64,000 bases of DNA, taken from a virus. A program made the position numbers and the translations under genes. Position 1 is the first letter of the stretch. Every line of letters begins with the position of its first letter. Below the pieces are notes generated by a model. That model ran no database searches and was not told the origin of the DNA. It worked only from the letters and a program-made list of their open reading frames with translations. Positions 4,230-60,798 of this stretch are shown here, one piece after another. The stretch lies in the UHGV virus genome UHGV-0240317. The stretch is one strand, 5' to 3'.

Positions 4230-5177
4230 TTACATAGAAACCCTATCCTTAATTTCTGCCATCTTAGCGTCATTCATTCGAGACTGACCTTTAATTTTTG
4301 TGAATGACAAGTACCCGCACACCCTGTTAATCACAGAGATATCGTGTGAATGGCAAACCTCACACTCTTCAACATCAGCCTTTGGTCTGTTACCACAATG
4401 TTCACAGATTGCTAAGTCAAAGTTAAGTCCCTGATAGAAACCTTTCAACATCCCTCTTGTAATACAACTTTTAAGTGCTGATAAGTTTTCTGGATTAGCT
4501 ACCCTTACATACTGGATTCTGCCGCCTCTACAGATATGGAAGAAGGGTTCTTCTAAGTCCTGCTTCTCAAATGGTGAGATGTTTGCTGCAACATTCATAT
4601 GGAAACTGTTTGTGAAGTATTCCTTGTCAGAAACACCTTTAATAATCCCAAACATCTCTCTGAACTGTTTTAGCTGAGTTCCGCAAAGTGATTCTGCTGG
4701 AGTACCATAGACGGCATATAAGAAGCCATCTTCATTTTTAAACTCTTCGGTTTTCATGTTGATGTATGCCAGAACATCATATGCAAAGCTATAGTTTCCA
4801 ACTTCATGAAGTCGTTTACCTTCAGCAAGAACAGACAACTCATCAAGCGCAGTAACACCAAAAGAAGCTGTGAAGGACTTCACAATATCCCAACCAACCT
4901 TGTCAGTAGGCTTCTTAGTTCCTTTGTACAGACCACCTTGTGTAAATGCAAGAGGGTTAGAACTTGCTGGCATATTAGCAATCATTTCATAGCGTTTCTT
5001 GTGGAAACTACGAATCATCTCTAGGTACTTATCAAGCTCTTTCCAGAAATCTAAACCATTCTCTTTAGAGTACTGGTAAATCATCGGTAAGTTCAAAGAT
5101 ACAGCACCAATGTTTGCACGACCTACATAAAACTCTTCACCATATTCGTTATGGTATGGTGATAAAAATGCTCTACA
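4230..5177 (-). CDS. nrdD: anaerobic ribonucleoside-triphosphate reductase, exon 2 (C-terminal part with glycyl-radical motif)
   Basis: Open frame begins CRAFLSPYHNEYGEEF upstream of the ORF-track start; C-terminus has Cys cluster CEHCG...CEVCHSHD and glycyl radical motif RVCGYL; junction with exon 1 gives ...VISPMG|CRAFLSP... Confidence 0.8.
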   Translation of the reverse strand, partial: CRAFLSPYHNEYGEEFYVGRANIGAVSLNLPMIYQYSKENGLDFWKELDKYLEMIRSFHKKRYEMIANMPASSNPLAFTQGGLYKGTKKPTDKVGWDIVKSFTASFGVTALDELSVLAEGKRLHEVGNYSFAYDVLAYINMKTEEFKNEDGFLYAVYGTPAESLCGTQLKQFREMFGIIKGVSDKEYFTNSFHMNVAANISPFEKQDLEEPFFHICRGGRIQYVRVANPENLSALKSCITRGMLKGFYQGLNFDLAICEHCGNRPKADVEECEVCHSHDISVINRVCGYLSFTKIKGQSRMNDAKMAEIKDRVSM

Positions 5178-5919
5178 CTTGTTGTTCAGGTAAGTTCGCT
5201 AAGCTTACCCCGCTTTATTCAAGCTGCTTACTGTCGCCAGTAAGTCCAGACTATATCTTCTACTTATTTCTAAGTAGCGTACCATTTCGAGTCGCTTGAC
5301 CCTACACCGCTACATTCATCACGGTTAGTCGTTCGGCATTTAGATGTATTCAAACTCATATTCGAAGTTATTATGCTCTTTTACACCCTTCAATATTGAA
5401 GAGATGGTCTTGCGATTGTGTCCAAGTATATTGGATAACTCTCGTATTGACTTAGTAACAATAACTTCCTTTGTCACTTTGTGTGTGGCTTTCACGGCAT
5501 ATGAACGCTTGTGGAACTTGTAGCACCCGTTCTCATAACCCTCTTTAGCATTCTCAGAATGAGTACCCCATTCTAAGTTGGATGCGTGGTTATTTAGTTT
5601 GTTATCGTCCTTATGTTTTACAATTGGAAGATTATTTGGGTTAGGTACATATTTCTCAGCAACTAACCTGTGGACATACATGTCACGATTCTTCTTACCG
5701 TAAAACCTCACTTTCATATACCCAGTGTTGGATTTCCACTGCGTAAGCTCTACACCATTTTCCCTAAAGACTTTTCTATCTTCAGTGACGTGATAGTTTG
5801 GCATGTAAGACTCCTATGTTGTATAGTTTCTTACATCGTACATCATTTAGCACAGGATTGTCTACATCTGTAGAGTTTCCCTGTTTAGGCACGTTTTAGA
5901 TGAGCTATAGAGCTTGTTA
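5178..5919 (-). mobile_element. group I self-splicing intron in nrdD (with embedded HNH homing endonuclease ORF)
   Basis: Exon 1 ends with U (…AUGGGU|UAA), intron ends with G (…CUGAACAACAAG|); core elements CTAAACAGGGAAACTCTACAGATGTAGACAATCCTGTGCTAAAT and GTAGGGTCAAGCGACTCGAAATGG ... ATATAGTCTGGAC closely resemble the T4 td/nrd group IA2 intron core as remembered. Confidence 0.8.
5340..5804 (-). CDS. HNH homing endonuclease (intron-encoded)
   Basis: 154 aa; HNH motif HKDDNKLNNHASNLEWGTHSEN; ATG with AGGAG RBS; lies inside nrdD intron. Confidence 0.75.
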   Translation of the reverse strand: MPNYHVTEDRKVFRENGVELTQWKSNTGYMKVRFYGKKNRDMYVHRLVAEKYVPNPNNLPIVKHKDDNKLNNHASNLEWGTHSENAKEGYENGCYKFHKRSYAVKATHKVTKEVIVTKSIRELSNILGHNRKTISSILKGVKEHNNFEYEFEYI

Positions 5920-20041: not shown

Positions 20042-20298
20042 GTAAGCCTCTTTTAAGTAACTATTAAGTTTTAATCTTTTATCTTAACGTATTCTATACG
20101 TTATACTTTAAAGCTTTTTAAAAGCTATTAAATAATCTTTTAAGAGTTTTAAAGTATCTGTATAGTTAAACTGTTAAGTAACCTTTTAAGTAAAAACCCA
20201 CTTCGCAAAGATTAACACCTTGTCAAGTGCATTGTCAACTTGCTTTTTATAATTTTTTGCAGTAATGTATGAGGTTAATGATTTTAGAGGGAGTAAAA

Positions 20299-22441
20299 AT
20301 GGAAAACGTAGATTTTAAAAACTTACATTTAGTTGGTGATACAGAAACTGATGGTTTACTCCTTGAGTTCACTAAAGTGCACGTAATGGCTTTCGCAGAC
20401 TATAAATCTGACGATGAAGAGCCACCTGTATGGGTCTTTACAGATGAGCCTATCCTCGGTCACAAGTATACCAAGTACATTAAGGGTGGCTTACGTGAAG
20501 GTGTTGAATTTGCGTTAAAGGCAAAACGTCTTTGCATCCATAATGGTCTCGGTTATGACTGGTGGGTTTTTAATCACATTGCACCTGATTTATGGAACTT
20601 TGATAATCCAAAGTGTAAACCGTGGAGTAATTTCTTTCAGGATTCTCTTATCCAGTCTCGTGTTCAGTGGATGGATAGACCAACCCCAAAAGGTTATAAG
20701 GGTGCTCATGGCTTGGCTGCATGGGGTGCTCGTGTTGGTGTCCGTAAACCAGAGATTGAACATTGGGGTGTGTGGAATGCAGAAATCTTCACTCGTGTTG
20801 TAGAAGATATCCGTATTAACGCCAAAACTAAACGGGCACTTGATAATGAATATCTCAAGCTTAAGAAGTGTGGCATAGATACTTATGAAACCTACATGCG
20901 AGCTAAAGAAACATCTTTTTGGATGAGTCAACAAGCTATCAATGGCTGGAAAGCTGATAAAGAGCTTATGGAGTTCCATGTAAAGGAACTTGACAAGTTG
21001 ACTAATGAGCTTGCTTCAGAGGTTGAACCACATCTACCTCCAACTATTAAGACCAAAGGTAAAGTCACTGGAGAAGAGTTTGCAAAAGCTTGGAATGAGT
21101 ATGTTGAAACATTTGGTCATGCAGATGGACTGAAGAGAATTACCAAGTACCCTAAGACAAAGTATCGTCAGCAGGTACGTAATGGTGAGATGCAGACTTA
21201 TGAAATCAAACCATTTGGTAAGCCAACTACAAAGATTTTTAACATTGAAAAGAGAAATTGCTATACACCAACCAACTCTGTAACTGGTGAAGAGTACAAG
21301 GAAGGTTTTGTAGCAATGAAGGATGCTCGTGCAATTTGCAATGAGTTGAATGCAAAGATTGGTAAGAAATGCAAAGACTGGAAGCCAGCAAAAACAGTTA
21401 AGACTGTGAAGTACTATAACAGCCATGTTGTTAACCACTTTGAGCTTGAGTCAAGTCGCTACACAGGTTTGATTGATGCACCATATACACCAATCGAGTT
21501 CGAAGTTTCTCGTATGACTCAGGTAGCAGTTGTTAAAGACTACTTGAAATCAGTTGGTTGGATTCCAGATGACTGGAACTATAAGAAAGACTCTGATGGT
21601 CGTCCTGTTAAGGTTTGTCGCTTCAAAGACAACAAAAAGATGATTACAAAGCATCCTAAATGGCAGGAAATGGTTGAACGGTGTGGTTTGAGCTATGTTG
21701 AACATGAAGGCGTCCAGTACATTGAGCATAACTGGTCTGTGAAGAAATACACAGATTTGCTTGAGCCTTGCTTAATCCGTACTTCACCAAAACTTACTGA
21801 ATCATCTTATGATACGATTGAAGGTGAGCTTGGACAGAAGATTGCTAAGTACTATACTTTGATGCACCGACGCAGAACTATTGAGAACTCAAAGGATGAT
21901 GAGAAAGGTTGGTTAAACCAGATTCGTCCTGATGGTCGCCTTAGTGCTGGTGCAATGGTGTTTGGTACTTCAACTGGACGTATGACACAATATGGTATTG
22001 TAAACGTACCGTCTGGTGCTGCTGTCTATGGAGCACCTATGAGGGAGGTGTGGATTTGTGAAGAGGGGACTAACATTGTTTCTGTTGACCAGAACTCAGC
22101 CCAGCTTGTTTTACTGTGTAACTTTATGGGTGATAAAGACTTCACCAAAGCAGTAACTGAAGGTAAAGAGTCAGTAGAGTTCACTAAGCAAGATGATGGT
22201 AGATACTACTGTAAACATCTTGACAAGTATCTTAACCCAGAAACTGACAAGTATCTGCGTTATGATGCTGAAAATGACCTCTATGAAGTCTACACAGGGA
22301 CTGATGCGCATACACTGAACAGTATTTACTTTGGTCTTAACAAGGAAGAAGATATTGTCCGTTGTAGGGAGACACAGGGTGAGGAACTTCTCCACGAGAT
22401 TACAAAAGGTCGTAAGAAAGCCAAAAATGGCATTTATGCGT
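20299..22441 (+). CDS. DNA polymerase family A (T7 gp5-like), exon 1 (3'-5' exonuclease and N-terminal polymerase domains)
   Basis: ATG 20299 with GAGGGAG RBS; exo motifs LVGDTETDGL and HNGLGYDWWV; exon ends ...RKKAKNGIYA + U, before in-frame stop located in intron. Confidence 0.8.
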
Positions 22442-22709
22442 CAGTGGCGCATGTAAAACGTTGTGAATTGCTGGAAGCCTAAGTCTGTAAAGATATGGTA
22501 ATCAGCAGCGAAGCCTCTTGAGAGGAACGTTCAGAGACTATCGAAAAGCATACTTAATGTATGAACTGAGTAGAGTAGGGTGGTAAGCTAATGACCATAC
22601 CCAAGTGCAACGGTAGCATCACTGCTACGTGATATAGTCCGACACTCCGTAGAAATGCGGAGAAGTTCATAAGAGAACTGGTACACCTTGCGAGTGTATT
22701 GACCAGATG
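22442..22709 (+). mobile_element. ORF-less group I intron in DNA polymerase gene
   Basis: P1: exon ATGCGU pairs with intron GCGCAU (U-G at splice site); P7 strands GTTCAGAGACTATCG and GATATAGTCCGAC; terminal G at 22709; splicing restores ...NGIYALLFGAGDEKF matching T7 pol motif YGFLYGAGDEK. Confidence 0.75.
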
Positions 22710-23266
22710 TATTGTTCGGTGCAGGTGATGAGAAGTTTGCCAAAACCATTAAGGCAGCTTCTACAGAGGAAGGTGCATTGACTAAGCAGACCTACTATAT
22801 GCGTCTACCAAAGATTAAGAAACTACTTGATAGCTTAGAAGCCGATTTTAAGGCGTCTAAAAAGGCTCTGGAAGAGGTTTTTGGGAAGAATTCTTCAATT
22901 GCTAAAGGTGGTTATATCAGAGTCGCTGGAGCATGGATATGGTGCAAATCTCCACATAAACTACTGAACTACCTCCTGATGAGTTCGGAAGCACAGATTC
23001 AGAATGAGGCCATCAACCTAGCAGCAAGAAAAGCCTGTGAAGATGGCCTGACAAAACTGAATGCTCGAAAACCAGCTATCGGAGCAAGGTTACTTCTGGC
23101 ATATCACGATGAAAATAGTTGGGAATGTCCAGAGGGTATGACACAGGATATGAAAGCAATTGCTGACTGGATGTATGGACAAGCTTCAAAAAACTTAGGT
23201 TTGAGGAAAGAAACACTTGTAACTGGTACAGCAAAGGTTGGTAAGAGCTGGTATGAGGTGCATTGA
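22710..23266 (+). CDS. DNA polymerase family A, exon 2 (motif B/C region to C-terminus)
   Basis: Begins (L)LFGAGDEKFAK; contains ...AYHDENSWECPEG (motif C-like HDE) and C-terminal ...WYEVH. Confidence 0.8.
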
Positions 23267-23269
23267 TTG

Positions 23270-23803
23270 ATGGATTTTATTTCACAAAAACGTTTAAAGG
23301 AGCTACTACACTATGACCCCGAAACAGGGGTCTTTACTTGGCTTCGTAGAGAAGGTAAATCAAGAGCTGTTAGTGTTTTTAACAGTAACTATGCAGGAAA
23401 GGTAGCAGGTAATGTTCAGACAGATTCAACTGGTCATAAACAGATTAGTATCTATTTTGACAAGAAAGCACATAAAGCACACAGACTCGCATGGCTTTAT
23501 GTATATGGCAAGATGCCAAAAGGTATCATTGACCATATCAACGGAGACTCTCTTGACAACAGGATTGCAAACTTAAGGGAAGCAGATGACTTCCAAAGTG
23601 CTTGGAATAAAGGTAAACTAGCCACCAATAAATCTGGGTACAAGGGTGTAAGCCTTAAGAAGAAGTCTGGTAAGTGGGTCGCACAGATAAGTTATAAAGG
23701 TAAGAAGATGTTTTTAGGTTACCATGACACCCCTGAAGAAGCCCATAAAGCTTACTGTGAAGCTGCTATGAAACTCCACGGAGAGTTTGCAAAACTAAGT
23801 TGA
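23270..23803 (+). CDS. HNH homing endonuclease with AP2 DNA-binding domain (free-standing, abutting DNA polymerase gene)
   Basis: HNH region HRLAWLYVYGKMPKGIIDHINGDSLDNRIANL; AP2-like SGYKGVSLKKKSGKWVAQISYKGKKMFLGYHDTPEEAHKAY. Confidence 0.75.
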   Translation: MDFISQKRLKELLHYDPETGVFTWLRREGKSRAVSVFNSNYAGKVAGNVQTDSTGHKQISIYFDKKAHKAHRLAWLYVYGKMPKGIIDHINGDSLDNRIANLREADDFQSAWNKGKLATNKSGYKGVSLKKKSGKWVAQISYKGKKMFLGYHDTPEEAHKAYCEAAMKLHGEFAKLS

Positions 23804-23854: not shown

Positions 23855-24064
23855 ATGAGCCATCGTGGAAGAACCCATGCAGCGATGATGAAAGGTGCTT
23901 CAAAGGAAACTATCAAGAACCGTAAGCAGAAGTTGTTTGAGAGAATGAATAGACTCATTGATAACACTTCCCTGTCTGGTGGTGAGAAAGTTTTCCTTAA
24001 AAGTAACCTTAAAAGCATTGCACAAGAACTTGTAGATATTGAATATTGGGGACATCAAAAATGA
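23855..24064 (+). CDS. hypothetical protein
   Basis: 69 aa; AGGAGGG RBS 6 nt upstream of ATG. Confidence 0.5.
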   Translation: MSHRGRTHAAMMKGASKETIKNRKQKLFERMNRLIDNTSLSGGEKVFLKSNLKSIAQELVDIEYWGHQK

Positions 24065-24279
24065 CACTTGCAGACGTTATTCAGCAACTTCATGATAACT
24101 GCTATACTCCAGAGTTGATTCAGGAGATGTGTATTGTAGTGATGCCTAGCAAGTTCGTAAAAGCCTTTAACAGTGACACTTTAAGGTCTGCACACATTCT
24201 TATTGTTGAAGGGAAGATTGCAAAAGACCGTACCGGAGTCCTTAAGGGTGAACGTATTGATATTGACTTAGCTTTTTAA
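24061..24279 (+). CDS. hypothetical protein
   Basis: ATGA overlap with upstream stop; 72 aa. Confidence 0.45.
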   Translation: MTLADVIQQLHDNCYTPELIQEMCIVVMPSKFVKAFNSDTLRSAHILIVEGKIAKDRTGVLKGERIDIDLAF

Positions 24280-24288
24280 GGGAAAACT

Positions 24289-24495
24289 ATGGAAGTCTTA
24301 GTAAACTATATCTATTGTTATGATGTTGTTCACTCCACTACAACCGTAGCTCAACGTAATCCCATCATCCCACGAGAAGGTGAGTTGGTTCGCATTGATG
24401 GTTGGACTTACACTGTGGAAAGCATCATTCATAAGTTTGATGTTGCTGGCGATGTTCAAGTTATCGACGTAGAGATTGGTGGTAAGAGAAAATGA
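24289..24495 (+). CDS. hypothetical protein
   Basis: 68 aa; stop overlaps ligase start. Confidence 0.45.
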   Translation: MEVLVNYIYCYDVVHSTTTVAQRNPIIPREGELVRIDGWTYTVESIIHKFDVAGDVQVIDVEIGGKRK

Positions 24496-25592
24496 CAATC
24501 CTGTACAAACAAAATAAAGACGGTTCCTTCAACGTCTGGTCATGCGTTGCTGTAGGTGACAAAGTTATTACAACCTACGGTAAAGAAAATGGCAAGATGA
24601 CGTTTGAAGAGTATACAGCAGAACCTAAAAACATCGGTAAAAAGAATGAGCGTAACGCTGAACAGCAAGCCCTCTTTGAAGTTGCTGCTAAGTATAAAAA
24701 ACAAGTTGACCGCAAAGGTTATGCTTACACAAAAGAATCTGCACAGAATACTGAGAAGGTAGGTGTACAGCTTGCTCATGATGCTGCAAAGGTTAGTCAT
24801 GCAAAGTATCTGAAGTTCCCTGCTGATGCTCAACCAAAACTTGATGGTGTCCGTTGTAGAATTTCAAGAGATGCTGATTCAGTCAGTTTCACAGCTTATT
24901 CTCGTGAGAACACTATTTATAAAATTCCTACTGAGCTAACACCTGACATTATGGCAATGTTGAGGCTCCATAAAGATGTTGATGAATTTGATGGTGAGAT
25001 TTATGCTCATGGGTGGGACTTAGAAGATATTGTCTCTATGATTAAAAATGAAGACAATCCTGACAGACACTTACTTAAGTTCTACTGGTATGATATCTGT
25101 GACAGTACTAAAACGTGGCCTGAGCGTAGAGATATTATTGAGACTTCACCATTGAATGACTTTAGAGACGGCTGTAAAGTTGTTCCTGTTAAATCTCGTC
25201 GTGTAAATTCTTGGGAAGAGTTTGATGAAGCTCATGATAAGTGGGTTGAAGCTAAGTTTGAAGGTGCAATGTACCGTTCAATCTCTGAAGACTCCTTCTA
25301 TGAGTGTTGTCACCGTTCATACTTCTTGATTAAGCACAAGAAGATGCACACTGAAGAGTTTAAAGTGACTGGTGTAAAGACTGATAAGCGTGGTCATGGC
25401 AAGTTCGTTGTAGAGACTCTTCCTAACGTCTTTGTAGATGTCTCATGGAAGACTACTCATGAGAAGAAACAGTATCTTGCTGAACATCCTGAAGAGTTTA
25501 TCGGGAAACCTTTGACGGTTCAGTTCCAGAAGATGACTCGTAAAGGTTCTTTACAGTTCCCTGTTGGGTTAGTTATTCGAGACTACGAATAA
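24492..25592 (+). CDS. ATP-dependent DNA ligase
   Basis: 366 aa; nucleotidyltransferase motif I PKLDGVRC (KxDGxR) with downstream motifs (FDGEIYAHG). Confidence 0.75.
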   Translation: MTILYKQNKDGSFNVWSCVAVGDKVITTYGKENGKMTFEEYTAEPKNIGKKNERNAEQQALFEVAAKYKKQVDRKGYAYTKESAQNTEKVGVQLAHDAAKVSHAKYLKFPADAQPKLDGVRCRISRDADSVSFTAYSRENTIYKIPTELTPDIMAMLRLHKDVDEFDGEIYAHGWDLEDIVSMIKNEDNPDRHLLKFYWYDICDSTKTWPERRDIIETSPLNDFRDGCKVVPVKSRRVNSWEEFDEAHDKWVEAKFEGAMYRSISEDSFYECCHRSYFLIKHKKMHTEEFKVTGVKTDKRGHGKFVVETLPNVFVDVSWKTTHEKKQYLAEHPEEFIGKPLTVQFQKMTRKGSLQFPVGLVIRDYE

Positions 25593-55259: not shown

Positions 55260-55335
55260 TGGAGAATCCGAAGGGACTCGAACCCTTATAAGCCTGTTTT
55301 GCAGACAGGCACATAGCCATTTCTGTCACGGATTC
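55260..55335 (-). tRNA. tRNA-Cys (anticodon GCA)
   Basis: Acceptor GAATCCG/CGGATTC, T-arm GGGTTCGAGTCCC, anticodon loop CTGCAAA, encoded CCA. Confidence 0.75.
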
Positions 55336-55339
55336 AAAT

Positions 55340-55432
55340 TGGAGGAAGATACCAGACTTGAACTGGTACACCGATTTCTCAGCTACTGGCAGTTTAGCAA
55401 ACTGCTCCCTTACCTTTTAGGGTTAATCTTCC
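55340..55432 (-). tRNA. tRNA-Ser (anticodon GCT), class II
   Basis: 93 nt with long variable arm; anticodon loop TTGCTAA; T-arm ACCAGTTCAAGTCTGGT; CCA. Confidence 0.7.
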
Positions 55433-55433
55433 A

Positions 55434-56009
55434 TTATTTCTGTAATGCGTTCTTCATTTCTGGTGTTGCAATAGTGTCAATCACACCAGTTTTACAAGCA
55501 TCATCAAACCAGTCTGGTAAGATACCTGCTAAGAACCCATTGATATTCGTTTTAAGGTACTCTGCAATAAGGGCAGCTTCTTCTTCAATCATCTGCACAA
55601 CTTCATCTGCATAAGCTGTAATCTTTGAGATACCTTCATTAATCTTACTGACAGCTTGGTTAGCTAAATCAGAAACAGTATCAAGACCCTTATCAATAGC
55701 ATCTTGTAAGTCACTTAATACACCATTAACACTATCCAATGTACTGTTCATCATGTCAATAGCTTTTTGACCATACTCTGTAGCAACACCCATAATACCA
55801 CTGAATGGTGTACAACCAACTTGTTCTCCTGCTGCACCCATAACATTGGAGTATCCCTTTGCTACCTGCATACGTGATGAAAACTCATCAATAGACTTTT
55901 GACCGTAGTCTGTTAGGGTCTTAGTAGTTGCTGTAGTGCTTGTAAGGCTTGTTGTAAAGCTGTTTAGAAGGACTGTTGTAAGTCCAGCAGCAACAAGTTT
56001 CTCCTTCAT
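55434..56009 (-). CDS. hypothetical protein embedded in tRNA cluster
   Basis: 191-aa ORF, Ser/Thr/Ala-rich, helical. Confidence 0.4.
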   Translation of the reverse strand: MKEKLVAAGLTTVLLNSFTTSLTSTTATTKTLTDYGQKSIDEFSSRMQVAKGYSNVMGAAGEQVGCTPFSGIMGVATEYGQKAIDMMNSTLDSVNGVLSDLQDAIDKGLDTVSDLANQAVSKINEGISKITAYADEVVQMIEEEAALIAEYLKTNINGFLAGILPDWFDDACKTGVIDTIATPEMKNALQK

Positions 56010-56185
56010 TGTAGGGTCTGTTACAGAGCTAATAGAGCTTACAAGTGATGTAGAAGCAGCTACGGTTCCACCGAGAACTGCTGCACCAGTAATAAGTGGG
56101 TTAGAGAACCCTTTACCGGTTTTTTAAGAGATTAAAAATCTCCTTACCTTGTTCTGTCATCTCTTTCATTAAGCACCTTTGAAAT

Positions 56186-56261
56186 TGGTAGTCCAGTGGG
56201 ATTTGAACCCTCTTCTCATGTTTTTCAGACACGCGCTTTAACCATATAAGCTACTTGGACT
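56186..56261 (-). tRNA. tRNA-Phe (anticodon GAA)
   Basis: Anticodon loop CTGAAAA; T-arm GGGTTCAAATCCC; CCA. Confidence 0.7.
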
Positions 56262-56267
56262 ATAAAT

Positions 56268-56343
56268 TGGGGTGACCTACGGGATTTGAACCCGTATAGA
56301 CCATGTTCACAGCATGGGTCATTACCATTTATGATAAGGCCAC
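56268..56343 (-). tRNA. tRNA-His (anticodon GTG)
   Basis: Anticodon stem-loop CCATG-CTGTGAA-CATGG; T-arm CGGGTTCAAATCCCG. Confidence 0.7.
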
Positions 56344-56374
56344 ATTTAAGGACTCTCGCAAGAATCCTTAGAAG

Positions 56375-56450
56375 TGGCAGCGGCATAAGGATTTGAACCT
56401 TAATAGGACAGCTTCAGAGGCTGCTGCATTGCCAGTTATGCTATACCGCT
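56375..56450 (-). tRNA. tRNA-Gln (anticodon CTG)
   Basis: D-stem GCAT/ATGC, anticodon loop CTCTGAA, T-arm TAAGGTTCAAATCCTTA, CCA. Confidence 0.65.
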
Positions 56451-56455
56451 AAATT

Positions 56456-56534
56456 TGGTACTCCATATCGGATTCGAACCGATACATAACACAGATTTTA
56501 AGTCTGGCCTCTCTGCCAATTGGAGTAATGGAGC
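56456..56534 (-). tRNA. tRNA with anticodon TAA (Leu-type anticodon but class-I-like length)
   Basis: Anticodon loop CTTAAAA; T-arm ATCGGTTCGAATCCGAT; 7-nt variable region; isotype uncertain. Confidence 0.5.
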
Positions 56535-56536
56535 AT

Positions 56537-56611
56537 TGGCGGGGGATGTTGGAATTGAACCAACTTCTTCGATTTCAAAGACCGAGGTTTTAACCTTGTA
56601 AACTAATCCCC
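56537..56611 (-). tRNA. tRNA-Gln (anticodon TTG)
   Basis: Anticodon stem-loop TCGGT-CTTTGAA-ATCGA; T-arm GTTGGTTCAATTCCAAC; CCA. Confidence 0.6.
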
Positions 56612-56620
56612 TTTAAATCT

Positions 56621-57178
56621 TTACTTTCTCAGTGGATGAATAAAGAATGCCAACATAACTCTTTCCCTTGAGAATGCTCTTTCTTCTGGGACAACACTTT
56701 TTAGTTTCCATCCAATATAAATTCTCCAGTAAAACTGTTTACCAAAGACTTTAATTGATGGGATAAAAGCGAATAATCCCCAAGCATTACTGTTCCACAT
56801 TAGGAGATAACCTGTCTGATTATCTTCAGGGTCAGAACTTACGTTGATATTACCTTTCCACTTAGTAACATCTTTTACATCTCTTCCTAATACATGGTAA
56901 GAGAAGTTATAAGCTTTGTTTCTCCAGAGCCATCCGACTCTCTGCATGTAGACACCCAGCTTACCAATCTTTCTAATCTTAGCCCATCTTTTAACGTGGC
57001 CTTCATCACCATCAATCGGGTTGTCATAGGTCTCCATCCATCTGAATCCAAAAGGTAGATGCCCTTTCTTCTCACTGTAGAATGGAACTACGAAAGGTGC
57101 TAAGATGACTGCTAGGGTTGCTGCAAATGGTTCTAACAAAGCTAGGAAAATCCATGAAGCATATTTTAAATATCTCAT
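56621..57178 (-). CDS. hypothetical membrane protein embedded in tRNA cluster
   Basis: 185 aa; N-terminal TM segments IFLALLEPFAATLAVILAPFVV. Confidence 0.45.
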   Translation of the reverse strand: MRYLKYASWIFLALLEPFAATLAVILAPFVVPFYSEKKGHLPFGFRWMETYDNPIDGDEGHVKRWAKIRKIGKLGVYMQRVGWLWRNKAYNFSYHVLGRDVKDVTKWKGNINVSSDPEDNQTGYLLMWNSNAWGLFAFIPSIKVFGKQFYWRIYIGWKLKSVVPEERAFSRERVMLAFFIHPLRK

Positions 57179-57417
57179 CGTCTAATCCTTGTAAGGAGAT
57201 AAATGTTATTATTCGTTTCTAAACCTTCTGGTAAAACTGTCTCAAAAATAACACTCTTTAGCTGTCTACCACCAAAACAATCACGTATAAATCTTTCTAC
57301 TCTAGCGGGGTCACATAAGTACCCTACTTTTAAGAAAATGTGGTGTTCAACACCAATGACCCTGACAAACTCAATATTCTCACAGTTTTCATGTTCAACT
57401 ACTGTTAATGTTTGCAT
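57175..57417 (-). CDS. hypothetical protein
   Basis: 80-aa ORF. Confidence 0.4.
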   Translation of the reverse strand: MQTLTVVEHENCENIEFVRVIGVEHHIFLKVGYLCDPARVERFIRDCFGGRQLKSVIFETVLPEGLETNNNIYLLTRIRR

Positions 57418-57434
57418 AGTATCACCTTTTTATC

Positions 57435-57510
57435 TGGCGCAGGATAAGGGATTCGAACCCCTATTAACAGCTTCGTAGACTGTTGCTCTATCCATTTGAA
57501 CTAATCCTGC
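57435..57510 (-). tRNA. tRNA-Arg (anticodon ACG)
   Basis: Anticodon stem-loop ACAGT-CTACGAA-GCTGT; T-arm AGGGGTTCGAATCCCTT; CCA. Confidence 0.75.
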
Positions 57511-57515
57511 AAAAT

Positions 57516-57593
57516 TGGTGTTCCAAGACGGATTCGAACCGTCACTAATACAAGGTTTGAGCTTGCATCCTCTTCCAATTGGGATACTGGAAC
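57516..57593 (-). tRNA. tRNA with anticodon CAA (Leu-type anticodon but class-I-like length)
   Basis: Anticodon loop CTCAAAC; T-arm GACGGTTCGAATCCGTC; perfect acceptor stem; isotype uncertain. Confidence 0.5.
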
Positions 57594-57594
57594 A

Positions 57595-57669
57595 TGGTAC
57601 TCACTAAAGGACTTGAACCTTTTTCTTCATCTTGTAAGGGTGATGTTTTACCATATAAACTAAGCGAGT
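57595..57669 (-). tRNA. tRNA-Val (anticodon TAC)
   Basis: Anticodon loop CTTACAA; T-arm AAAGGTTCAAGTCCTTT; CCA. Confidence 0.65.
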
Positions 57670-57674
57670 GTGAA

Positions 57675-57760
57675 AGAGGTCTGAAGTTGTGCCGCTAACT
57701 CAACTCCGTGGAATTTGTTACGGTCTTCAGTTGACACCAGCGGTCTTTCACTTGACCTCT
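57675..57760 (-). ncRNA. structured non-tRNA element in tRNA cluster (7-bp closing stem AGAGGTC/GACCTCT, inner 6-bp stem CTGAAG/CTTCAG)
   Basis: No T-loop/CCA; contains GAAGACCGT box related to the repeated elements at 59928-60707. Confidence 0.3.
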
Positions 57761-57764
57761 GAAT

Positions 57765-57841
57765 TGGTGCTGCTCACAGGACTCGAACCTGCATTTCCAT
57801 CCTTACAAGGGATGTGTAATAGCCAATTATACGAAAGCAGC
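57765..57841 (-). tRNA. tRNA-Thr (anticodon TGT)
   Basis: Anticodon stem-loop CATCC-CTTGTAA-GGATG; T-arm GCAGGTTCGAGTCCTGT; CCA. Confidence 0.65.
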
Positions 57842-57847
57842 ATTGTT

Positions 57848-57922
57848 TGGAGCATCCAGAGGGAATCGAACCCTCAACCTCAGTTTGGAAGACTGTAATT
57901 TTCCCGTTTAAACTATGGATGC
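57848..57922 (-). tRNA. tRNA-Gly (anticodon TCC)
   Basis: Anticodon loop CTTCCAA; T-arm GAGGGTTCGATTCCCTC; CCA. Confidence 0.7.
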
Positions 57923-57928
57923 ACTAAT

Positions 57929-58004
57929 TGGTGGAGAAGCAGGGAATTGAACCCTGTACTTAAGTTTGCAAAACTTATGTTTTAACCATGTAAACTACAT
58001 CCCC
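57929..58004 (-). tRNA. tRNA-Ala (anticodon TGC)
   Basis: Anticodon stem-loop TAAGT-TTTGCAA-ACTTA; T-arm CAGGGTTCAATTCCCTG; CCA. Confidence 0.65.
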
Positions 58005-58010
58005 AATGTC

Positions 58011-58086
58011 TGGTACAGGTGGAGGGAATTGAACCCATCGTCTTACTGATTAAGAGTCAGCCGCATAACCATTTTGCTACACCTGC
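58011..58086 (-). tRNA. tRNA-Lys (anticodon CTT)
   Basis: Anticodon loop CTCTTAA; T-loop TTCAATT; acceptor GCAGGTG/CACCTGT; CCA. Confidence 0.6.
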
Positions 58087-58093
58087 ATTAATT

Positions 58094-58170
58094 TGGTACA
58101 CCTAGAGAGATTCGAACTCACACTGAGCAGATTCTAAGTCTGCTGCCTCTACCAATTGGGTTATAGGTGC
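58094..58170 (-). tRNA. tRNA with anticodon TAG (Leu-type anticodon but class-I-like length)
   Basis: Anticodon stem-loop GCAGA-CTTAGAA-TCTGC; T-loop TTCGAAT; isotype uncertain. Confidence 0.5.
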
Positions 58171-58171
58171 A

Positions 58172-58624
58172 TTAAATCAAATGTCTTGAGAATTGACTGT
58201 GGCAATTTGGACACAAGAACCGAAGATTCTCTTTTCTATCATCTAACCAGTTCTCGTTAATGTGGTCAACATCAAGAGTTAGAGGATTACCCAACCAATC
58301 AGGTAACTGACCACATTTAGAGCACTTGTATTCGACACCAGAGGCTATTAAAGCTCTTCTTAGTTGTGAAGACCTCGCTCTTTCACCAGATTCACGTAGA
58401 ATTAGGATTTCTTCAGGCTTTCTTTTTGGTACAGTTTTAATCTTACCAGCCTTTTGTCCGAGAAAATGAGAAGTGTCTATTTCAAACTTTTCTATAACAC
58501 GCTTTAGATGTGACTGAGAACCACCTGCTGGTTTTCTCCCAAGCTTAATAAGTACTTCTCTGAATGATACTGAATCCTTTACTAAAGGTTCAAGAATATC
58601 TTTAGTCAAACTGCTGCGTGCCAT
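58172..58624 (-). CDS. HNH endonuclease (free-standing, inside tRNA cluster)
   Basis: 150 aa; C-terminal HNH/zinc motif CSKCGQ...LDVDHINENW...NLRFLCPNCH. Confidence 0.7.
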   Translation of the reverse strand: MARSSLTKDILEPLVKDSVSFREVLIKLGRKPAGGSQSHLKRVIEKFEIDTSHFLGQKAGKIKTVPKRKPEEILILRESGERARSSQLRRALIASGVEYKCSKCGQLPDWLGNPLTLDVDHINENWLDDRKENLRFLCPNCHSQFSRHLI

Positions 58625-58894
58625 GTGTCAATCTCCCATTAAATCTTTTTAGAGAACTTCTAAGAACCTAAGCAACAAGGTTCCACAACAAGCTGTAATA
58701 ACCTTAGAAGCCCTCTAAAAAGACCTAAAAAGGTCTTTGCATAGTCTTGTTTAATCCGGTGACTAGAACCTTTGGAGAGCTTGATATTATCTCTTCTCCG
58801 TGACACCTACTAGGTGCTTTATCAGTGCGTACAACAATACACGCGGTATACCAAAGCAACATCCGAATGAAGCTTGGCTTTAAATCTTATTAGG

Positions 58895-58982
58895 CGGTAA
58901 GTAAAGGAGTCGAACCCTCACCGTATCTCTACAGTGGCAACAGTTTTCAAGACTGTTTGGCTGCCATTAGCCGCTACCTACC
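58895..58982 (-). tRNA. tRNA-Ser (anticodon TGA), class II
   Basis: 88 nt; anticodon stem-loop ACAGT-CTTGAAA-ACTGT; long variable arm; T-arm GAGGGTTCGACTCCTTT; CCA not encoded. Confidence 0.6.
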
Positions 58983-58995
58983 CCTAATAAGACTT

Positions 58996-59078
58996 TGGCA
59001 TGGGACGGAGGATTTGAACCCCTTTGAAACGGTTTTGGAGGCCGTTGCTCATGCCTTAGAGTCTTAACATCGTCCCAT
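58996..59078 (-). tRNA. tRNA-Trp-like (anticodon CCA) with enlarged D-loop
   Basis: Perfect acceptor ATGGGAC/GTCCCAT, T-arm GGGGTTCAAATCCTCC, anticodon loop CTCCAAA on a 4-bp stem; 83 nt. Confidence 0.45.
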
Positions 59079-59220
59079 ATTATAATTCGAAGCTTACCGT
59101 ATTATCTCAACACTGTAAAGCCCCTTCTCAGATTATTTACATGTTCTGGAAAACATGAGATACAGACCACCTCCCTACAGGAAGACCCGCTTAGGTCGTC
59201 TAAGTAATCTGCTAACTAAT

Positions 59221-59297
59221 TGGCACACCCTACAGGATTCGAACCTGTAACTAACGATTTAGAAGACCGTTGCTCTATCCAATTGAACTAAGGGTGC
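59221..59297 (-). tRNA. tRNA-Arg (anticodon TCT)
   Basis: Anticodon stem-loop ACGGT-CTTCTAA-ATCGT; T-arm ACAGGTTCGAATCCTGT; CCA. Confidence 0.7.
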
Positions 59298-59544
59298 ATT
59301 AATCTTTAAAGACTCTCTGAGAAAGCCCTTAAAGATGCCCACCTTATTAATCATACCGTGGGCTAGTACGCCAAATTCTTCGATGAGGGATTGGAAGACC
59401 TCACTGGTGTTTAGCCTATCAAGCTACTGCCAGAAAAACATTGTCGTTTGCATTTATTTTAAATTTGCAAAATAGACGCTACGCAACGAAAACTAAGGTT
59501 ACTATAAAGTAGTCACATCTCAATGTCAACAACTTTATTGAAAG

Positions 59545-59619
59545 TGGTTGTAGGTGAGGGTATCGAACCCTCTTCTAACGGTTATCAGCCGTTTGCATTA
59601 CCATTTATGCTAACCCACA
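59545..59619 (-). tRNA. tRNA-Ile (anticodon GAT)
   Basis: Anticodon stem-loop AACGG-CTGATAA-CCGTT; T-arm GAGGGTTCGATACCCTC; CCA. Confidence 0.7.
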
Positions 59620-59621
59620 AT

Positions 59622-59698
59622 TGGAGGTTCAGATGGGAATCGAACCCACATTCATAGGGCTTATGAGACCCTTGCATTACCTTATCTGCGACTGAACC
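59622..59698 (-). tRNA. tRNA-Met (anticodon CAT)
   Basis: Anticodon loop CTCATAA; T-arm GTGGGTTCGATTCCCAT; perfect acceptor GGTTCAG/CTGAACC. Confidence 0.65.
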
Positions 59699-59702
59699 AT
59701 AT

Positions 59703-59778
59703 TGGTAGAAGTGGAGGGATTCGAACCCATCGCCTGTCAGATTAAAAGTCTGCCGCATCACCATTCTGCTACACTTCC
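59703..59778 (-). tRNA. tRNA-Lys (anticodon TTT)
   Basis: Anticodon loop CTTTTAA; T-loop TTCGAAT; CCA. Confidence 0.6.
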
Positions 59779-59927
59779 ATTAAATTATCTTTGTAGATAA
59801 GCTACCCAGACTTGCTTAAGGTCTGTAGCGATGTGTATTGTTGGGTTTAAATCTAGAATTTACCCTTTCACCCTTTGTGGTCGCATACTCACAGGTAAGC
59901 TTAATAACTTATCTACAAAGATAATTA

Positions 59928-60060
59928 CCAGACCGTTGTTTAACATCTTAAGTGCTACCATTACACCAACTCGACATCTGCCGAGTGAAGGAATCGAACC
60001 TTCTCCTTTTCTTTACCGGAGAAATAGATTGTTTAAAGTTTGCTGTAAACGGTCTTCTGT
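59928..60060 (-). ncRNA. structured RNA element (repeat-family member 3) containing a tRNA-like module without anticodon arm
   Basis: Closing stem ACAGAAGACCGTT/AACGGTCTGG; interior has canonical T-arm GAAGGTTCGATTCCTTC, 7-bp acceptor-like hairpin ACTCGGC-agat-GTCGAGT and D-arm-like GTGT-AATGGTA-GCAC. Confidence 0.35.
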
Positions 60061-60072
60061 AAATTTGTTGAG

Positions 60073-60151
60073 CCAGACCAAGTTTTAAAATTTTTTCAAA
60101 ATTAAATTGGCTTGAAAATATCATACGTACTTGCTGTAATTGGTCTTCTGC
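60073..60151 (-). ncRNA. structured RNA element (repeat-family member 4)
   Basis: Plus-strand CCAGACC...TTGCTGTAATTGGTCTTCTGC; same terminal boxes as members 1-3. Confidence 0.3.
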
Positions 60152-60211
60152 TCCTTTAAAGAATACTCGTAAGAACTCTTTAAGGGAGGGGCTAAATAGC
60201 CCTCTCAAAAT

Positions 60212-60289
60212 TGGCGGTTACGAAGGGATTTGAACCATCATCATCTCCCGTGACAGGGGAGTATTTTAACCAAATTAAACTACATAACC
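60212..60289 (-). tRNA. tRNA-Asp (anticodon GTC)
   Basis: Anticodon stem-loop CTCCC-CTGTCAC-GGGAG; T-loop TTCAAAT; CCA. Confidence 0.7.
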
Positions 60290-60294
60290 TTTAT

Positions 60295-60382
60295 TGGTGT
60301 GCCGTGTAGGAGTCGAACCTACCGAGTCTCAATGACAAGGGATTTACAGTCCCCACCGCTACCATCTACGGGATAACGACAC
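60295..60382 (-). tRNA. tRNA-Tyr (anticodon GTA), class II
   Basis: 88 nt; anticodon stem-loop GGGGA-CTGTAAA-TCCCT; long variable arm; T-arm GTAGGTTCGACTCCTAC; CCA. Confidence 0.7.
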
Positions 60383-60391
60383 ATTTAAATT

Positions 60392-60468
60392 TGGCGGTTA
60401 GTCAGGGATTCGAACCCTGTGCCATTCGCTTAACAGGCGACCGCACATACCTTATGTGCTTCCTAACC
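60392..60468 (-). tRNA. tRNA-Asn (anticodon GTT)
   Basis: D-stem GCAC/GTGC; anticodon loop CTGTTAA; T-arm CAGGGTTCGAATCCCTG; CCA. Confidence 0.7.
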
Positions 60469-60479
60469 TTAATACATTG

Positions 60480-60541
60480 CCAGACCGTGTTTTTTCTTTT
60501 ATCCGCAAAAAGTATTTTGTTGCTGTAAACGGTCTTCTGTA
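60480..60541 (-). ncRNA. structured RNA element (repeat-family member 1)
   Basis: Plus-strand CCAGACCG...TTGCTGTAAACGGTCTTCTGT; on minus strand directly follows tRNA 3' end. Confidence 0.3.
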
Positions 60542-60545
60542 AATT

Positions 60546-60621
60546 TGGAGGCGGGTGCAGGAGTCGAACCTGCCGATACCATGCTAATGAGACATGTGAG
60601 ACGCCCTTTCTCTATACCCGC
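60546..60621 (-). tRNA. tRNA-Met-type (anticodon CAT), second copy
   Basis: Anticodon stem-loop CATGT-CTCATTA-GCATG; T-arm GCAGGTTCGACTCCTGC; could be initiator or Ile-lysidine type. Confidence 0.55.
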
Positions 60622-60633
60622 AATTCTTAATGA

Positions 60634-60707
60634 CCAGACCAAATCTCTTCTTTGTCCGATTTACCTTCAGATGAATAAGATTAAGTTTGCTGTAATTGGT
60701 CTTCTGT
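60634..60707 (-). ncRNA. structured RNA element (repeat-family member 2)
   Basis: Plus-strand CCAGACC...TTTGCTGTAATTGGTCTTCTGT. Confidence 0.3.
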
Positions 60708-60713
60708 CAAAAC

Positions 60714-60791
60714 TGGCGTTCCAGAAGGGATTTGAACCCTCAGATATCCACTTTGAAAGAGTGGTGACTTTACCATTTTGTCTACTGGAAC
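60714..60791 (-). tRNA. tRNA-Glu (anticodon TTC)
   Basis: Anticodon stem-loop CCACT-CTTTCAA-AGTGG; T-arm GAGGGTTCAAATCCCTT; CCA. Confidence 0.7.
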
Positions 60792-60798
60792 ATTAATT

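What the first reader, a model, noticed from the sequence alone, without database searches (positions are those of the whole stretch)
22442..23803. DNA polymerase gene split by a 268-nt ORF-less group I intron, with a free-standing HNH-AP2 endonuclease directly downstream
The polymerase frame stops at 22480-22482, but conserved motif B/C residues resume at 22710. The intervening sequence has a P1 helix with a U-G splice-site pair (exon ATGCGT / intron GCGCAT), P7-like strands (CAGAGACTA and ATAGTCCGAC) and a terminal G. Splicing yields ...NGIYALLFGAGDEKF. The endonuclease lies outside the intron, which suggests either trans-acting (collaborative) homing or an endonuclease that has escaped a former intron.
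Basis: partly seen in the sequence, partly recalled or inferred. Interest (0 to 1): 0.65.

Follow-up and report, generated by a model that had tools for sequence, protein, structure and literature searches.

The report
Group I intron in phage polymerase
A Felix O1-like phage has its DNA polymerase gene interrupted by a small self-splicing intron, with a selfish nuclease gene just downstream; the call is correct, but both elements are ordinary and already recorded in close relatives.

Summary
The window is a Felixounavirus, 96-97% identical to many GenBank phages. Positions 22442-22709 are a 268-nt group I intron without an ORF (Rfam RF00028, 62.3 bits against a gathering score of 50). It has a P1 helix with a U.G pair, a P10 helix, helices P3-P9, P7.1/P7.2 (subgroup IA2, no P2) and a terminal G. 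Removing it gives an 899-aa family A polymerase that aligns without gaps to the uninterrupted gene of phage HY02 (892/899 identical). The next gene, 23270-23803, encodes an intact HNH_3+AP2 endonuclease.

The same intron is in about 96 GenBank phage records. It is annotated as spliced in phage Meda and mentioned in that genome announcement, so it is already known.

Relatives show a homing cycle with three forms: about 800 nt with an Endonuclease_7 homing gene in P6a, 311 nt with a remnant of that gene, and 268 nt as here.

The HNH-AP2 gene is a separate free-standing element. Four alleles (38-48% identical) occupy the same site, with or without the intron. The "escaped from the intron" idea is rejected. 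Co-mobilisation of the intron by the HNH enzyme is plausible: every ORF-less intron I could inspect has an HNH gene beside it. It is not proven.

The parts
20299..22441 (+). DNA polymerase exon 1: 3'-5' exonuclease domain, motif A and the first half of motif B (...GRKKAKNGIYA plus the first base of a Leu codon). The start may instead be the ATG at 20269.
   Evidence: ORF 20269-22482. Relatives annotate a 2184-nt CDS that begins at the MENVDF start. Weak DNA_pol_A match. The exon 1 end is fixed by colinearity with intron-less alleles.
22442..22709 (+). 268-nt group I intron without an ORF (subgroup IA2-like, no P2). Helices: P1 internal guide 22447-22452; P10 guide 22442-22446; P3 22459-22465/22606-22612; P4 22469-22474/22502-22507; P5 22478-22481/22494-22498; P6 22508-22509/22529-22530; P6a 22514-22517/22522-22525; P7 22534-22541/22634-22640; P7.1 22549-22563; P7.2 22578-22602; P8 22613-22628; P9 22645-22662 with a GAAA loop; P9.1 22680-22704; terminal G at 22709.
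   Evidence: Rfam RF00028 at 62.3 bits. All listed helices are fully paired. The minimum-energy fold recovers P3, P4/P5, P7.1, P7.2, P8 and P9. Variation among 18 copies is compensatory or falls in loops, with two exceptions noted in the full report. The segment is exactly absent from intron-less relatives.
22480..22482 (+). In-frame stop codon 39 nt into the intron. It terminates translation of unspliced RNA.
   Evidence: ORF end; sequence.
22514..22525 (+). Minimal P6a hairpin (CCUC-UUGA-GAGG). In relatives this is where a 43-nt stem remnant or a ~535-nt cassette with an Endonuclease_7 homing gene is inserted.
   Evidence: Alignments with Mushroom (311-nt intron) and JH2 (802-nt intron). Pfam PF02945 at 1.1e-19 for the JH2 ORF.
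22710..23266 (+). DNA polymerase exon 2: the rest of motif B (L-LFGAGDEKF) and motif C (LLAYHDE). It has no start codon of its own other than an annotators' TTG at 22712, and no Shine-Dalgarno sequence.
23270..23803 (+). Free-standing HNH-AP2 homing endonuclease gene, called allele A here (177 aa). Its ATG lies 4 nt after the polymerase stop, with GAGG 11 nt upstream.
   Evidence: Pfam HNH_3 5e-15 and AP2 1.6e-12. About 44 GenBank records carry this allele at 94.8% identity or more. The gene is precisely absent from wV8-like, JH2, EC6, SP4 and VpaE1 genomes.
22150..23266 (+). Hyper-divergent mosaic block of the polymerase gene. It surrounds the intron site and ends at the HNH insertion site. 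Relatives fall into types A, B and C that are 68-84% identical to each other here, against a backbone of about 97%.
   Evidence: Identity map in 100-nt bins over 41 loci; base-by-base map around the splice junction.

Best explanation
Positions 22442-22709 are a self-splicing group I intron of the phage IA2 type (P7.1/P7.2 present, P2 absent). It interrupts the family A DNA polymerase gene of a Felix O1-like phage inside motif B. The insertion point is after the first base of the Leu codon that, from my memory of the E. coli Pol I and T7 sequences, corresponds to Leu764 and Phe528 respectively.

Splicing:
- P1 (exon AUGCGU with guide GCGCAU) presents U22441.G22447 for attack by guanosine.
- P10 (guide CAGUG with exon 2 UAUUG) and the terminal G22709 position the 3' splice site.
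- Exon ligation yields one 899-aa polymerase. Unspliced RNA stops at 22480.

Mobility: the intron has no nuclease gene and cannot home on its own. It is the minimal form of a mobile intron. Sister copies in the genus carry an Endonuclease_7-type homing gene in the P6a loop (~800 nt) or a 43-nt remnant of that cassette (311 nt).

The HNH-AP2 gene at 23270-23803 is a separate, free-standing homing endonuclease gene. It is one of four diverged alleles that alternate at the same site behind the polymerase stop codon.

Inferred, not shown: double-strand breaks made in naive genomes are repaired from an intron-carrying donor. The breaks could come from the Endonuclease_7 enzyme of full-length introns or from the neighbouring HNH-AP2 enzyme. 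Repair would carry the ORF-less intron along by co-conversion. I put the HNH-driven contribution at about 0.4. The confidence of 0.9 applies to the core claims: a self-splicing intron and an independent free-standing endonuclease gene.
For: Shown here:
- Rfam hit above the gathering score, and a complete set of canonical helices, all fully paired.
- Among 18 copies there are 19 variable sites. Eleven are unpaired. P6a 22514/22525 and P8 22617/22624 change C-G to U-A on both sides.
- The 268 nt are exactly absent from intron-less alleles, and the spliced protein aligns to the HY02 polymerase without gaps, 892/899 identical.
- Pfam DNA_pol_A passes its threshold only after splicing.
- The intron is 94-100% identical across polymerase backgrounds that are only 68-84% identical to each other. 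Co-conversion tracts are short: phiWec177 from -8 to +16, and the window's first ~140 nt of exon 2 match the SP4/EC6 alleles.
- The homing gene and the 43-nt remnant both sit in P6a. The 311-nt form keeps the cassette's 5' leader and its last codons with a stop.
- The HNH gene is absent from some intron-containing genomes (JH2, VpaE1, EC6, SP4) and present in at least 10 intron-less records with allele A.
- Four alleles, 38-48% identical, occupy one site.
- Every ORF-less intron I could inspect has an HNH gene downstream: 39 listed records of the 268-nt form plus the 311-nt forms, in 7 distinct combinations of intron form, allele and exon type. Only about 144 of 263 genus records carry such a gene.
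- Phage Meda's record joins the two exons, and its announcement notes the intron (PMC6486253).
Against: - No RNA or enzyme data exist for this phage group, so splicing and both nuclease activities are inferred.
- The single-sequence fold is only modestly more stable than shuffled sequence (z = -1.85). P7 is a pseudoknot that the fold cannot show.
- The link between ORF-less introns and HNH genes rests on related genomes. Treating the 7 combinations as independent gives roughly 0.55^7 = 0.015. Thirty-six intron-bearing records were not listed and could hold exceptions.
- The direction of change between the 268-nt, 311-nt and ~800-nt forms is inferred from retained coding remnants, not proven.
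Confidence: 0.9

Rival explanations
1. Strict collaborative homing. The HNH-AP2 enzyme (allele A) recognises and cuts the uninterrupted intron insertion site of the polymerase gene. The intron protects its own genome by splitting that site. This is the arrangement described for F-CphI with the psbA intron of cyanophage S-PM2 and for T3/PhiI-type phages.
For: The gene sits 557 nt from an ORF-less intron. No allele A carrier inspected (about 44 records) has an intact wV8-type insertion site. Each has either the intron or the HY02-type sequence, which differs from the wV8 type at about 9 of the 30 bases around the site. The review PMC3984707 describes this pathway.
Against: Allele A is always linked to the whole type A polymerase block, so the difference at the insertion site is not specific. 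Allele B occurs with an intact wV8-type site that is identical over -88 to +37 (L004 and L014), so at least that allele does not target the site. The target could equally be the empty intergenic site or any other part of exon 2.
Confidence: 0.2
2. No functional link. The intron and the HNH-AP2 gene are independent selfish elements that are neighbours only because both favour the conserved polymerase region. Their co-occurrence reflects shared ancestry and linkage.
For: Each element occurs without the other. Introns that keep their own homing gene occur both with and without an HNH gene. Felix O1 carries allele C and, according to PMC3185647, has no intron.
Against: ORF-less introns were never seen without an HNH neighbour, across 7 distinct combinations and against a background frequency of about 55%. 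At 557 nt apart, any break-repair event at one element will often co-convert the other.
Confidence: 0.35
3. The HNH-AP2 gene once lay inside the intron and moved out.
For: A related intron (72% identical) in the RNA polymerase gene of Gamaleyavirus ZQ2 is followed by an HNH-AP2 ORF that is 34% identical to the window's protein and appears to lie within that intron's 3' region.
Against: In this genus the intron-borne nuclease belongs to the Endonuclease_7 family, sits in P6a, and has no similarity to the HNH-AP2 protein. The HNH site is occupied in intron-less phages by four diverged alleles. A whole 557-nt exon separates the gene from the intron.
Confidence: 0.03
4. A genuinely split polymerase. 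The two ORFs are translated separately, as most GenBank records annotate them, and nothing is spliced.
For: Most records list two "DNA polymerase" CDSs.
Against: The split falls inside the O-helix of motif B. Exon 2 has no ATG or Shine-Dalgarno sequence. The intervening 268 nt score as a group I intron and evolve under structural constraint. Intron-less relatives encode one colinear protein.
Confidence: 0.02

Closest known systems
The same intron in other Felixounavirus genomes (Salmonella phage Meda, MH586731; announcement PMC6486253)
   Same: The intron is 97-99% identical and sits at the same site. [quoted passage not shown] Meda also has an HNH gene directly downstream.
   Different: Meda carries HNH allele B, which is 46% identical to the window's allele A, on a different exon 2 mosaic. 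Nothing beyond that one sentence has been published, and splicing has not been tested.
[quoted passage not shown]
   Same: All lie in a family A polymerase host gene. All are IA2 introns with P7.1/P7.2 and no P2. The homing gene, where present, is inserted in P6a. All have a U.G pair at the 5' splice site, a terminal G, and an early stop codon in the intron.
   Different: Those introns sit at E. coli Pol I positions 881 (PhiI, W31) and 674 (Pf-WMP3, SPO1, SP82, Bastille), and at 676 in phiL7, according to PMC3428280. This one is in motif B at about position 764; that alignment is from my memory. Their nucleases are HNH enzymes. The intron-borne nuclease of this genus is of the Endonuclease_7 type, and the window's copy has none.
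Trans homing by T4 mobE of the nrdB intron with defunct I-TevIII (PMC2790892), and collaborative homing by F-CphI with the psbA intron of S-PM2 and in T3/PhiI (reviewed in PMC3984707)
   Same: A free-standing homing endonuclease gene lies next to a gene that holds an intron unable to home by itself. Co-conversion could mobilise both elements together.
   Different: In those systems the cleavage sites and super-Mendelian inheritance were measured. Here the HNH-AP2 target is unknown. Allele B, at least, coexists with an intact insertion site, which argues against strict collaborative homing for that allele.
The homing cycle of invasion, nuclease decay and loss (Goddard and Burt model; named from my own knowledge)
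   Same: The genus holds empty sites, introns with an intact homing gene (JH2, EC6, SP4), introns with a frameshifted or unannotated one (VpaE1, Si3), a deletion remnant (311 nt) and a minimal intron (268 nt).
   Different: Precise intron loss has not been demonstrated here. The SUSP1 and SUSP2 alleles, with GCGT at the empty site, are only suggestive.

Membership tests
Group I intron (Rfam RF00028) | Conserved catalytic core (P3-P9, including the P4, P7 and J8/7 sequence elements) scoring above the family's gathering threshold | tested here: met
   62.3 bits against a gathering score of 50, E = 2e-13. GUUCAGAGACUA and GAUAUAGUCC align to the model with high posterior probability.
Group I intron (Rfam RF00028) | P1 helix formed by the 5' exon end and an internal guide sequence, with a U.G wobble pair at the splice site | tested here: met
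   AUGCGU (22436-22441) pairs 6/6 with GCGCAU (22447-22452), including U22441.G22447. These exon bases are invariant in all 18 intron-bearing alleles but vary in intron-less ones.
Group I intron (Rfam RF00028) | Terminal G at the 3' end and a P10 pairing with the 3' exon | tested here: met
   G22709 is the last intron base. CAGUG (22442-22446) pairs 5/5 with UAUUG (22710-22714).
Group I intron (Rfam RF00028) | Removal restores a continuous host gene colinear with uninterrupted homologues | tested here: met
   Exact 268-nt presence/absence. The 899-aa product aligns without gaps to the HY02 polymerase. Pfam DNA_pol_A passes only after splicing.
Group I intron (Rfam RF00028) | Base-paired structure maintained in evolution (compensatory changes) | tested here: met
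   P6a and P8 each show a C-G to U-A double change, and 11 of 19 variable sites are unpaired. Diversity is low, so the test has limited power. My P7.2 pair 22581-22599 is not conserved and is probably a bulge.
Group I intron (Rfam RF00028) | Guanosine-dependent self-splicing | not testable with these tools
   Needs in vitro transcription and splicing, or RT-PCR from infected cells.
Subgroup IA2 (phage type) | Extra helices P7.1 and P7.2 between P7 and P3 | tested here: met
   Hairpins at 22549-22563 and 22578-22602 lie between the P7 5' strand and the P3 3' strand. The free fold recovers them. P2 is absent, as in the PhiI, W31 and Pf-WMP3 introns (PMC3428280).
Free-standing HNH homing endonuclease (HNH_3 + AP2 architecture) | HNH nuclease domain joined to a DNA-binding domain, encoded outside any intron or intein | tested here: met
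   HNH_3 at residues 69-104 and AP2 at residues 122-171. The ORF starts 4 nt after the polymerase stop codon.
Free-standing HNH homing endonuclease (HNH_3 + AP2 architecture) | Presence/absence polymorphism at one precise site among closely related genomes | tested here: met
   The gene is absent with clean junctions in L006-L010, L013, JH2, EC6, SP4 and VpaE1. It is present as alleles A, B, C or D elsewhere.
Free-standing HNH homing endonuclease (HNH_3 + AP2 architecture) | Site-specific cleavage of genomes lacking the gene, with super-Mendelian inheritance | not testable with these tools
   Needs a cleavage assay and phage crosses.
Collaborative homing (free-standing endonuclease plus ORF-less intron sharing one target) | The endonuclease target coincides with the intron insertion site | tested here: inconclusive
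   Carriers of allele A never have the wV8-type intact site, but allele A is linked to the whole type A block. Allele B coexists with an intact wV8-type site.
Collaborative homing (free-standing endonuclease plus ORF-less intron sharing one target) | The ORF-less intron and the free-standing endonuclease gene are adjacent and inherited together | tested here: met
   All inspected 268-nt and 311-nt introns have an HNH gene 557 nt downstream. The reverse does not hold: at least 10 allele A records lack the intron.

The most novel reading that the evidence does not exclude
The polymerase 3' region of Felixounaviruses may be a two-nuclease homing arena. Four interchangeable HNH-AP2 alleles share an identical ~100-nt 3' end, which could serve as a recombination anchor. 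These enzymes would drive gene conversion of a ~1.1-kb polymerase block and so mobilise an intron that has lost its own Endonuclease_7 homing gene. This would be a natural, population-scale case of trans or collaborative homing, and it would explain why ORF-less copies persist only beside an HNH gene.
Probability: 0.35. Interest if true: 0.5.

Novelty: already known. Interest (0 to 1): 0.27.

Why it matters
For annotation: most of the ~96 GenBank records that hold this intron list two "DNA polymerase" CDSs. At least one comparative paper reads the intron's Endonuclease_7 gene as a repair enzyme (PMC8300805). These records should carry a joined CDS and an intron feature.

For biology: the genus offers a sampled series of states. 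These are empty sites, introns with an intact homing gene, decayed homing genes, a remnant and a minimal intron. Next to them lies a hot spot with four free-standing nuclease alleles. The phages are easy to grow, so trans homing and the homing cycle could be tested in crosses.

The insertion point inside the O-helix of motif B appears to differ from the characterised polymerase intron sites (674, 676 and 881). None of this changes current understanding of how group I introns or homing endonucleases work.

Tried and rejected
- Rfam coordinates: the match (22379-22662) is not the intron. Its 5' part is a low-confidence fit of P1/P2 onto exon 1, and it stops before P9.1. I set the boundaries by hand and checked them against intron-less alleles.
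- Free folding of the intron gave only z = -1.85. It is useful for locating helices but not as evidence on its own.
- MAFFT --auto on 41 loci timed out. I reran it with fast settings.
- A 48-nt query specific to the minimal P6a hairpin was too strict and found only the 11 records with an identical sequence, so it could not list all 268-nt introns.
- An early pattern from four genomes suggested that introns keeping their own homing gene lack the downstream HNH. Searches with alleles B and D showed many such introns with an HNH gene (VSe11, VSe102, SBA-1781, SPT-1, Si3, DE7, PC79-13). I dropped the idea.
- I fetched VpaE1_ev78 and VpaE1_ev108 hoping they were laboratory-evolved recombinants of VpaE1. 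Both have an intron-less polymerase gene with an HNH gene downstream, unlike VpaE1. Nothing I found shows they derive from VpaE1, so they give no experimental evidence.
- The MAFFT alignment of the distant ZQ2 intron was unreliable in the P7.1-P8 region. I therefore ran no formal covariation count against distant relatives, and built no RNA model.
- tblastn with the HNH-AP2 and Endonuclease_7 proteins found no further copies in the window.

Full report
**Identity of the window.** Megablast of 20269-23803 finds 263 phage records, nearly all Felixounavirus (Felix O1-like myophages of Salmonella and Escherichia). The best matches are 96-97% identical over the whole query. The 24 tRNA genes at 55263-60875 fit this genus.

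**The observation.** The polymerase ORF runs from 20269/20299 to a stop at 22480-22482, and a second ORF (22712-23266) continues the protein.
- Rfam RF00028 matches 22379-22662 at 62.3 bits against a gathering score of 50. The core elements align well: AAUUGCUGGA for P4, GUUCAGAGACUA for J6/7-P7, and GAUAUAGUCC for J8/7-P7. The model's P1/P2 part is forced onto exon 1 and should be ignored.
- By hand, every canonical helix is present and fully paired: P1 (22436-22441 with 22447-22452, U.G at the splice site), P10 (22442-22446 with 22710-22714), P3, P4, P5, P6/P6a, P7, P7.1, P7.2, P8, P9 with a GAAA loop, and P9.1. G22709 is the terminal base.
- There is no P2. Together with P7.1/P7.2, this matches the IA2 introns of the PhiI, W31 and Pf-WMP3 polymerase genes as described in PMC3428280.
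- The unconstrained fold recovers P3, P4/P5, P7.1, P7.2, P8 and P9, although its z-score is only -1.85.

**Boundaries and product.** In 24 intron-less relatives the two exons abut exactly where 22442-22709 is removed.
- The spliced ORF is 2700 nt and encodes 899 aa. It aligns to the uninterrupted HY02 polymerase with no gaps, 892/899 identical, reading ...GRKKAKNGIYALLFGAGDEKF....
- Pfam DNA_pol_A passes its threshold only for the spliced protein (52.3 bits, one stretch covering residues 702-897 across the junction). The exons alone score 16.9 and 25.6 bits.
- From my memory of the E. coli Pol I (R754, K758, F762, Y766) and T7 (R518, K522, Y526, Y530) sequences, the intron lies after the first base of the codon equivalent to L764/F528, in the O-helix. 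PMC3428280 lists polymerase intron sites 674, 676 and 881, so this appears to be a further site.
- Exon 2 has no ATG or Shine-Dalgarno sequence. A two-polypeptide polymerase is very unlikely.

**Structural constraint.** Among 18 intron copies (16 distinct sequences) there are 19 variable positions.
- Eleven are in loops or bulges.
- 22514/22525 (P6a) and 22617/22624 (P8) change C-G to U-A on both sides.
- 22606 and 22627 change to other allowed pairs.
- Only a single-sequence change in the weak P5 and my doubtful P7.2 pair at 22599 do not fit.

**Relatives show a homing cycle.** About 96 phage records hold the intron. There are three forms, all differing at the P6a loop.
- The 268-nt form, as in the window.
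- A 311-nt form (Mushroom, garuso, Tf and others) with a 43-nt extension of the P6a stem.
- Forms of 780-805 nt (JH2, EC6, SP4, VpaE1, Si3 and others) with a 160-aa ORF that matches Pfam Endonuclease_7 at 1.1e-19.

The 311-nt form keeps the cassette's 5' leader (GUUAGGACUCCUAAA) and its last codons with a stop (GCAAAUAAC...UCCUAAC). It therefore looks like a deletion derivative. VpaE1's nuclease gene is split into two ORFs, and Si3's is not annotated.

**Evidence of mobility.** Relatives are about 97% identical to the window up to roughly 22100 and again after 23750. Between 22150 and 23266 they fall into haplotypes that are only 68-84% identical. The intron itself is 94-100% identical in all of these backgrounds.
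- Base-level maps show short donor tracts. In phiWec177 the HY02-type exon sequence resumes at -9 and at +17.
- In the window the first ~140 nt of exon 2 match the SP4/EC6 alleles and then switch to type A.
- All intron-bearing alleles share UAUGCGU|UAUUGUUCGG. Intron-less alleles read GCAC|UGCUG, GCCC|UGUUA or GCGU|UGCUG.

**The HNH-AP2 gene.** The protein from 23270-23803 has HNH_3 and AP2 domains. It shows no similarity to the Endonuclease_7 protein.
- Four alleles occupy the same site: A (the window), B (Meda), C (Felix O1, tootiki) and D (Mushroom).
- They are 38-48% identical as proteins, yet all end in the same ...TPEEAHKAYCEAAxKLHGEFAKLS.
- About 144 of 263 records have one of them.
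- wV8-like phages, JH2, EC6, SP4 and VpaE1 have none, with clean junctions.
- Allele A occurs with an uninterrupted polymerase gene in HY02, ECOH1, Z31, bumzen, ULIM9, ph2-2, FGS030, CRP22, AN17P8 and one IMG/VR contig.

The gene is therefore an independent free-standing element, not a former intron ORF.

**Is there a functional link?** Every ORF-less intron I could inspect has an HNH gene 557 nt downstream.
- This covers 39 listed 268-nt records, REP5-7 and SUT_S820/S920, and the 311-nt records. They fall into seven different combinations of intron form, allele and exon type.
- Introns that keep their own nuclease gene occur both with and without an HNH gene.
- With a background frequency of about 0.55, seven independent combinations would give about 0.015. 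Independence is doubtful, and 36 intron-bearing records were not listed.
- This fits hitch-hiking by co-conversion, as with T4 mobE and the I-TevIII intron (PMC2790892).
- Strict collaborative homing, where the target equals the insertion site (PMC3984707), is not excluded for allele A. Its carriers never have the wV8-type intact site.
- It is disfavoured for allele B, which coexists with that site unchanged over -88 to +37 (L004, L014).

**Literature.**
- The Felix O1 genome paper reports no introns (PMC3185647).
- The Meda announcement states that an intron without an HNH gene lies in a DNA polymerase gene (PMC6486253), and Meda's CDS is joined.
- The SPJ41 paper lists two introns among its ncRNAs (PMC9951933).
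- A genus-wide comparison does not mention the intron (PMC8300805).
- I found no experimental work on splicing or homing in this genus.

**Verdict.** The feature is real and was correctly read. It is a known kind of element and a known instance. Its value lies in correcting annotations and in offering a convenient natural system for studying trans homing.

Noticed in passing
window 23700-23803, compared with L018, L020 and L021: The four HNH-AP2 alleles at this site are only 38-48% identical as proteins. Yet they share a nearly identical last ~80-106 nt, encoding the C-terminus TPEEAHKAYCEAAxKLHGEFAKLS. This could be a recombination anchor for swapping alleles, or a constrained signal for the downstream genes.
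   Followed up: partly
window 22150-23266: A ~1.1-kb block of the polymerase gene is hyper-divergent among genomes that are otherwise ~97% identical (68-84%, at least three haplotypes). Its left edge lies about 300 nt upstream of the intron site, and its right edge lies at the HNH insertion site.
   Followed up: partly
L019 (Escherichia phage vB_EcoP-ZQ2, Gamaleyavirus) 460-1408: A group I intron about 72% identical to this one over the aligned part (Rfam 91.8 bits) interrupts a gene annotated as RNA polymerase. It is followed by an HNH_3+AP2 ORF (764-1408, 34% identical to the window's protein) that seems to lie inside the intron's 3' part. I did not determine the 3' splice site.
   Followed up: partly
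window 58172-58624 (- strand): A 150-aa ORF with a Pfam HNH match (22.9 bits against a cutoff of 21.4) sits among the tRNA genes of the 55263-60875 cluster. It may be another free-standing homing endonuclease. Neighbouring ORFs in the cluster are DUF7217 and DUF7338.
   Followed up: partly
GenBank records GU169904 (Staphylococcus phage SA1), MG065664 and MG065668 (Campylobacter phages A132 and A126): These records contain polymerase/HNH regions 96-99% identical to Felixounavirus sequence. This suggests chimeric or contaminated assemblies rather than true hosts.
   Followed up: no
L021 (tootiki) 4980-5278 and L025 (HMD-P8) 4811-5281, homologous to the window's ligase gene 24492-25592: In some relatives the DNA ligase gene is annotated as two overlapping CDSs (about 190-220 nt plus about 1.1 kb). 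In the window it is a single ORF. This could be a frameshift, an alternative start or another insertion.
   Followed up: no
window 23855-24495: The small ORFs between the HNH gene and the ligase gene vary in number and order among relatives (two to eight short hypothetical genes). This is another mosaic stretch.
   Followed up: no
L011 and L012 (phiSUSP1, SUSP2) around locus position 4998: These intron-less alleles carry GCGT at the 5' side of the empty site, like intron-bearing alleles. This could mark precise intron loss, or a ready-made homing site.
   Followed up: no
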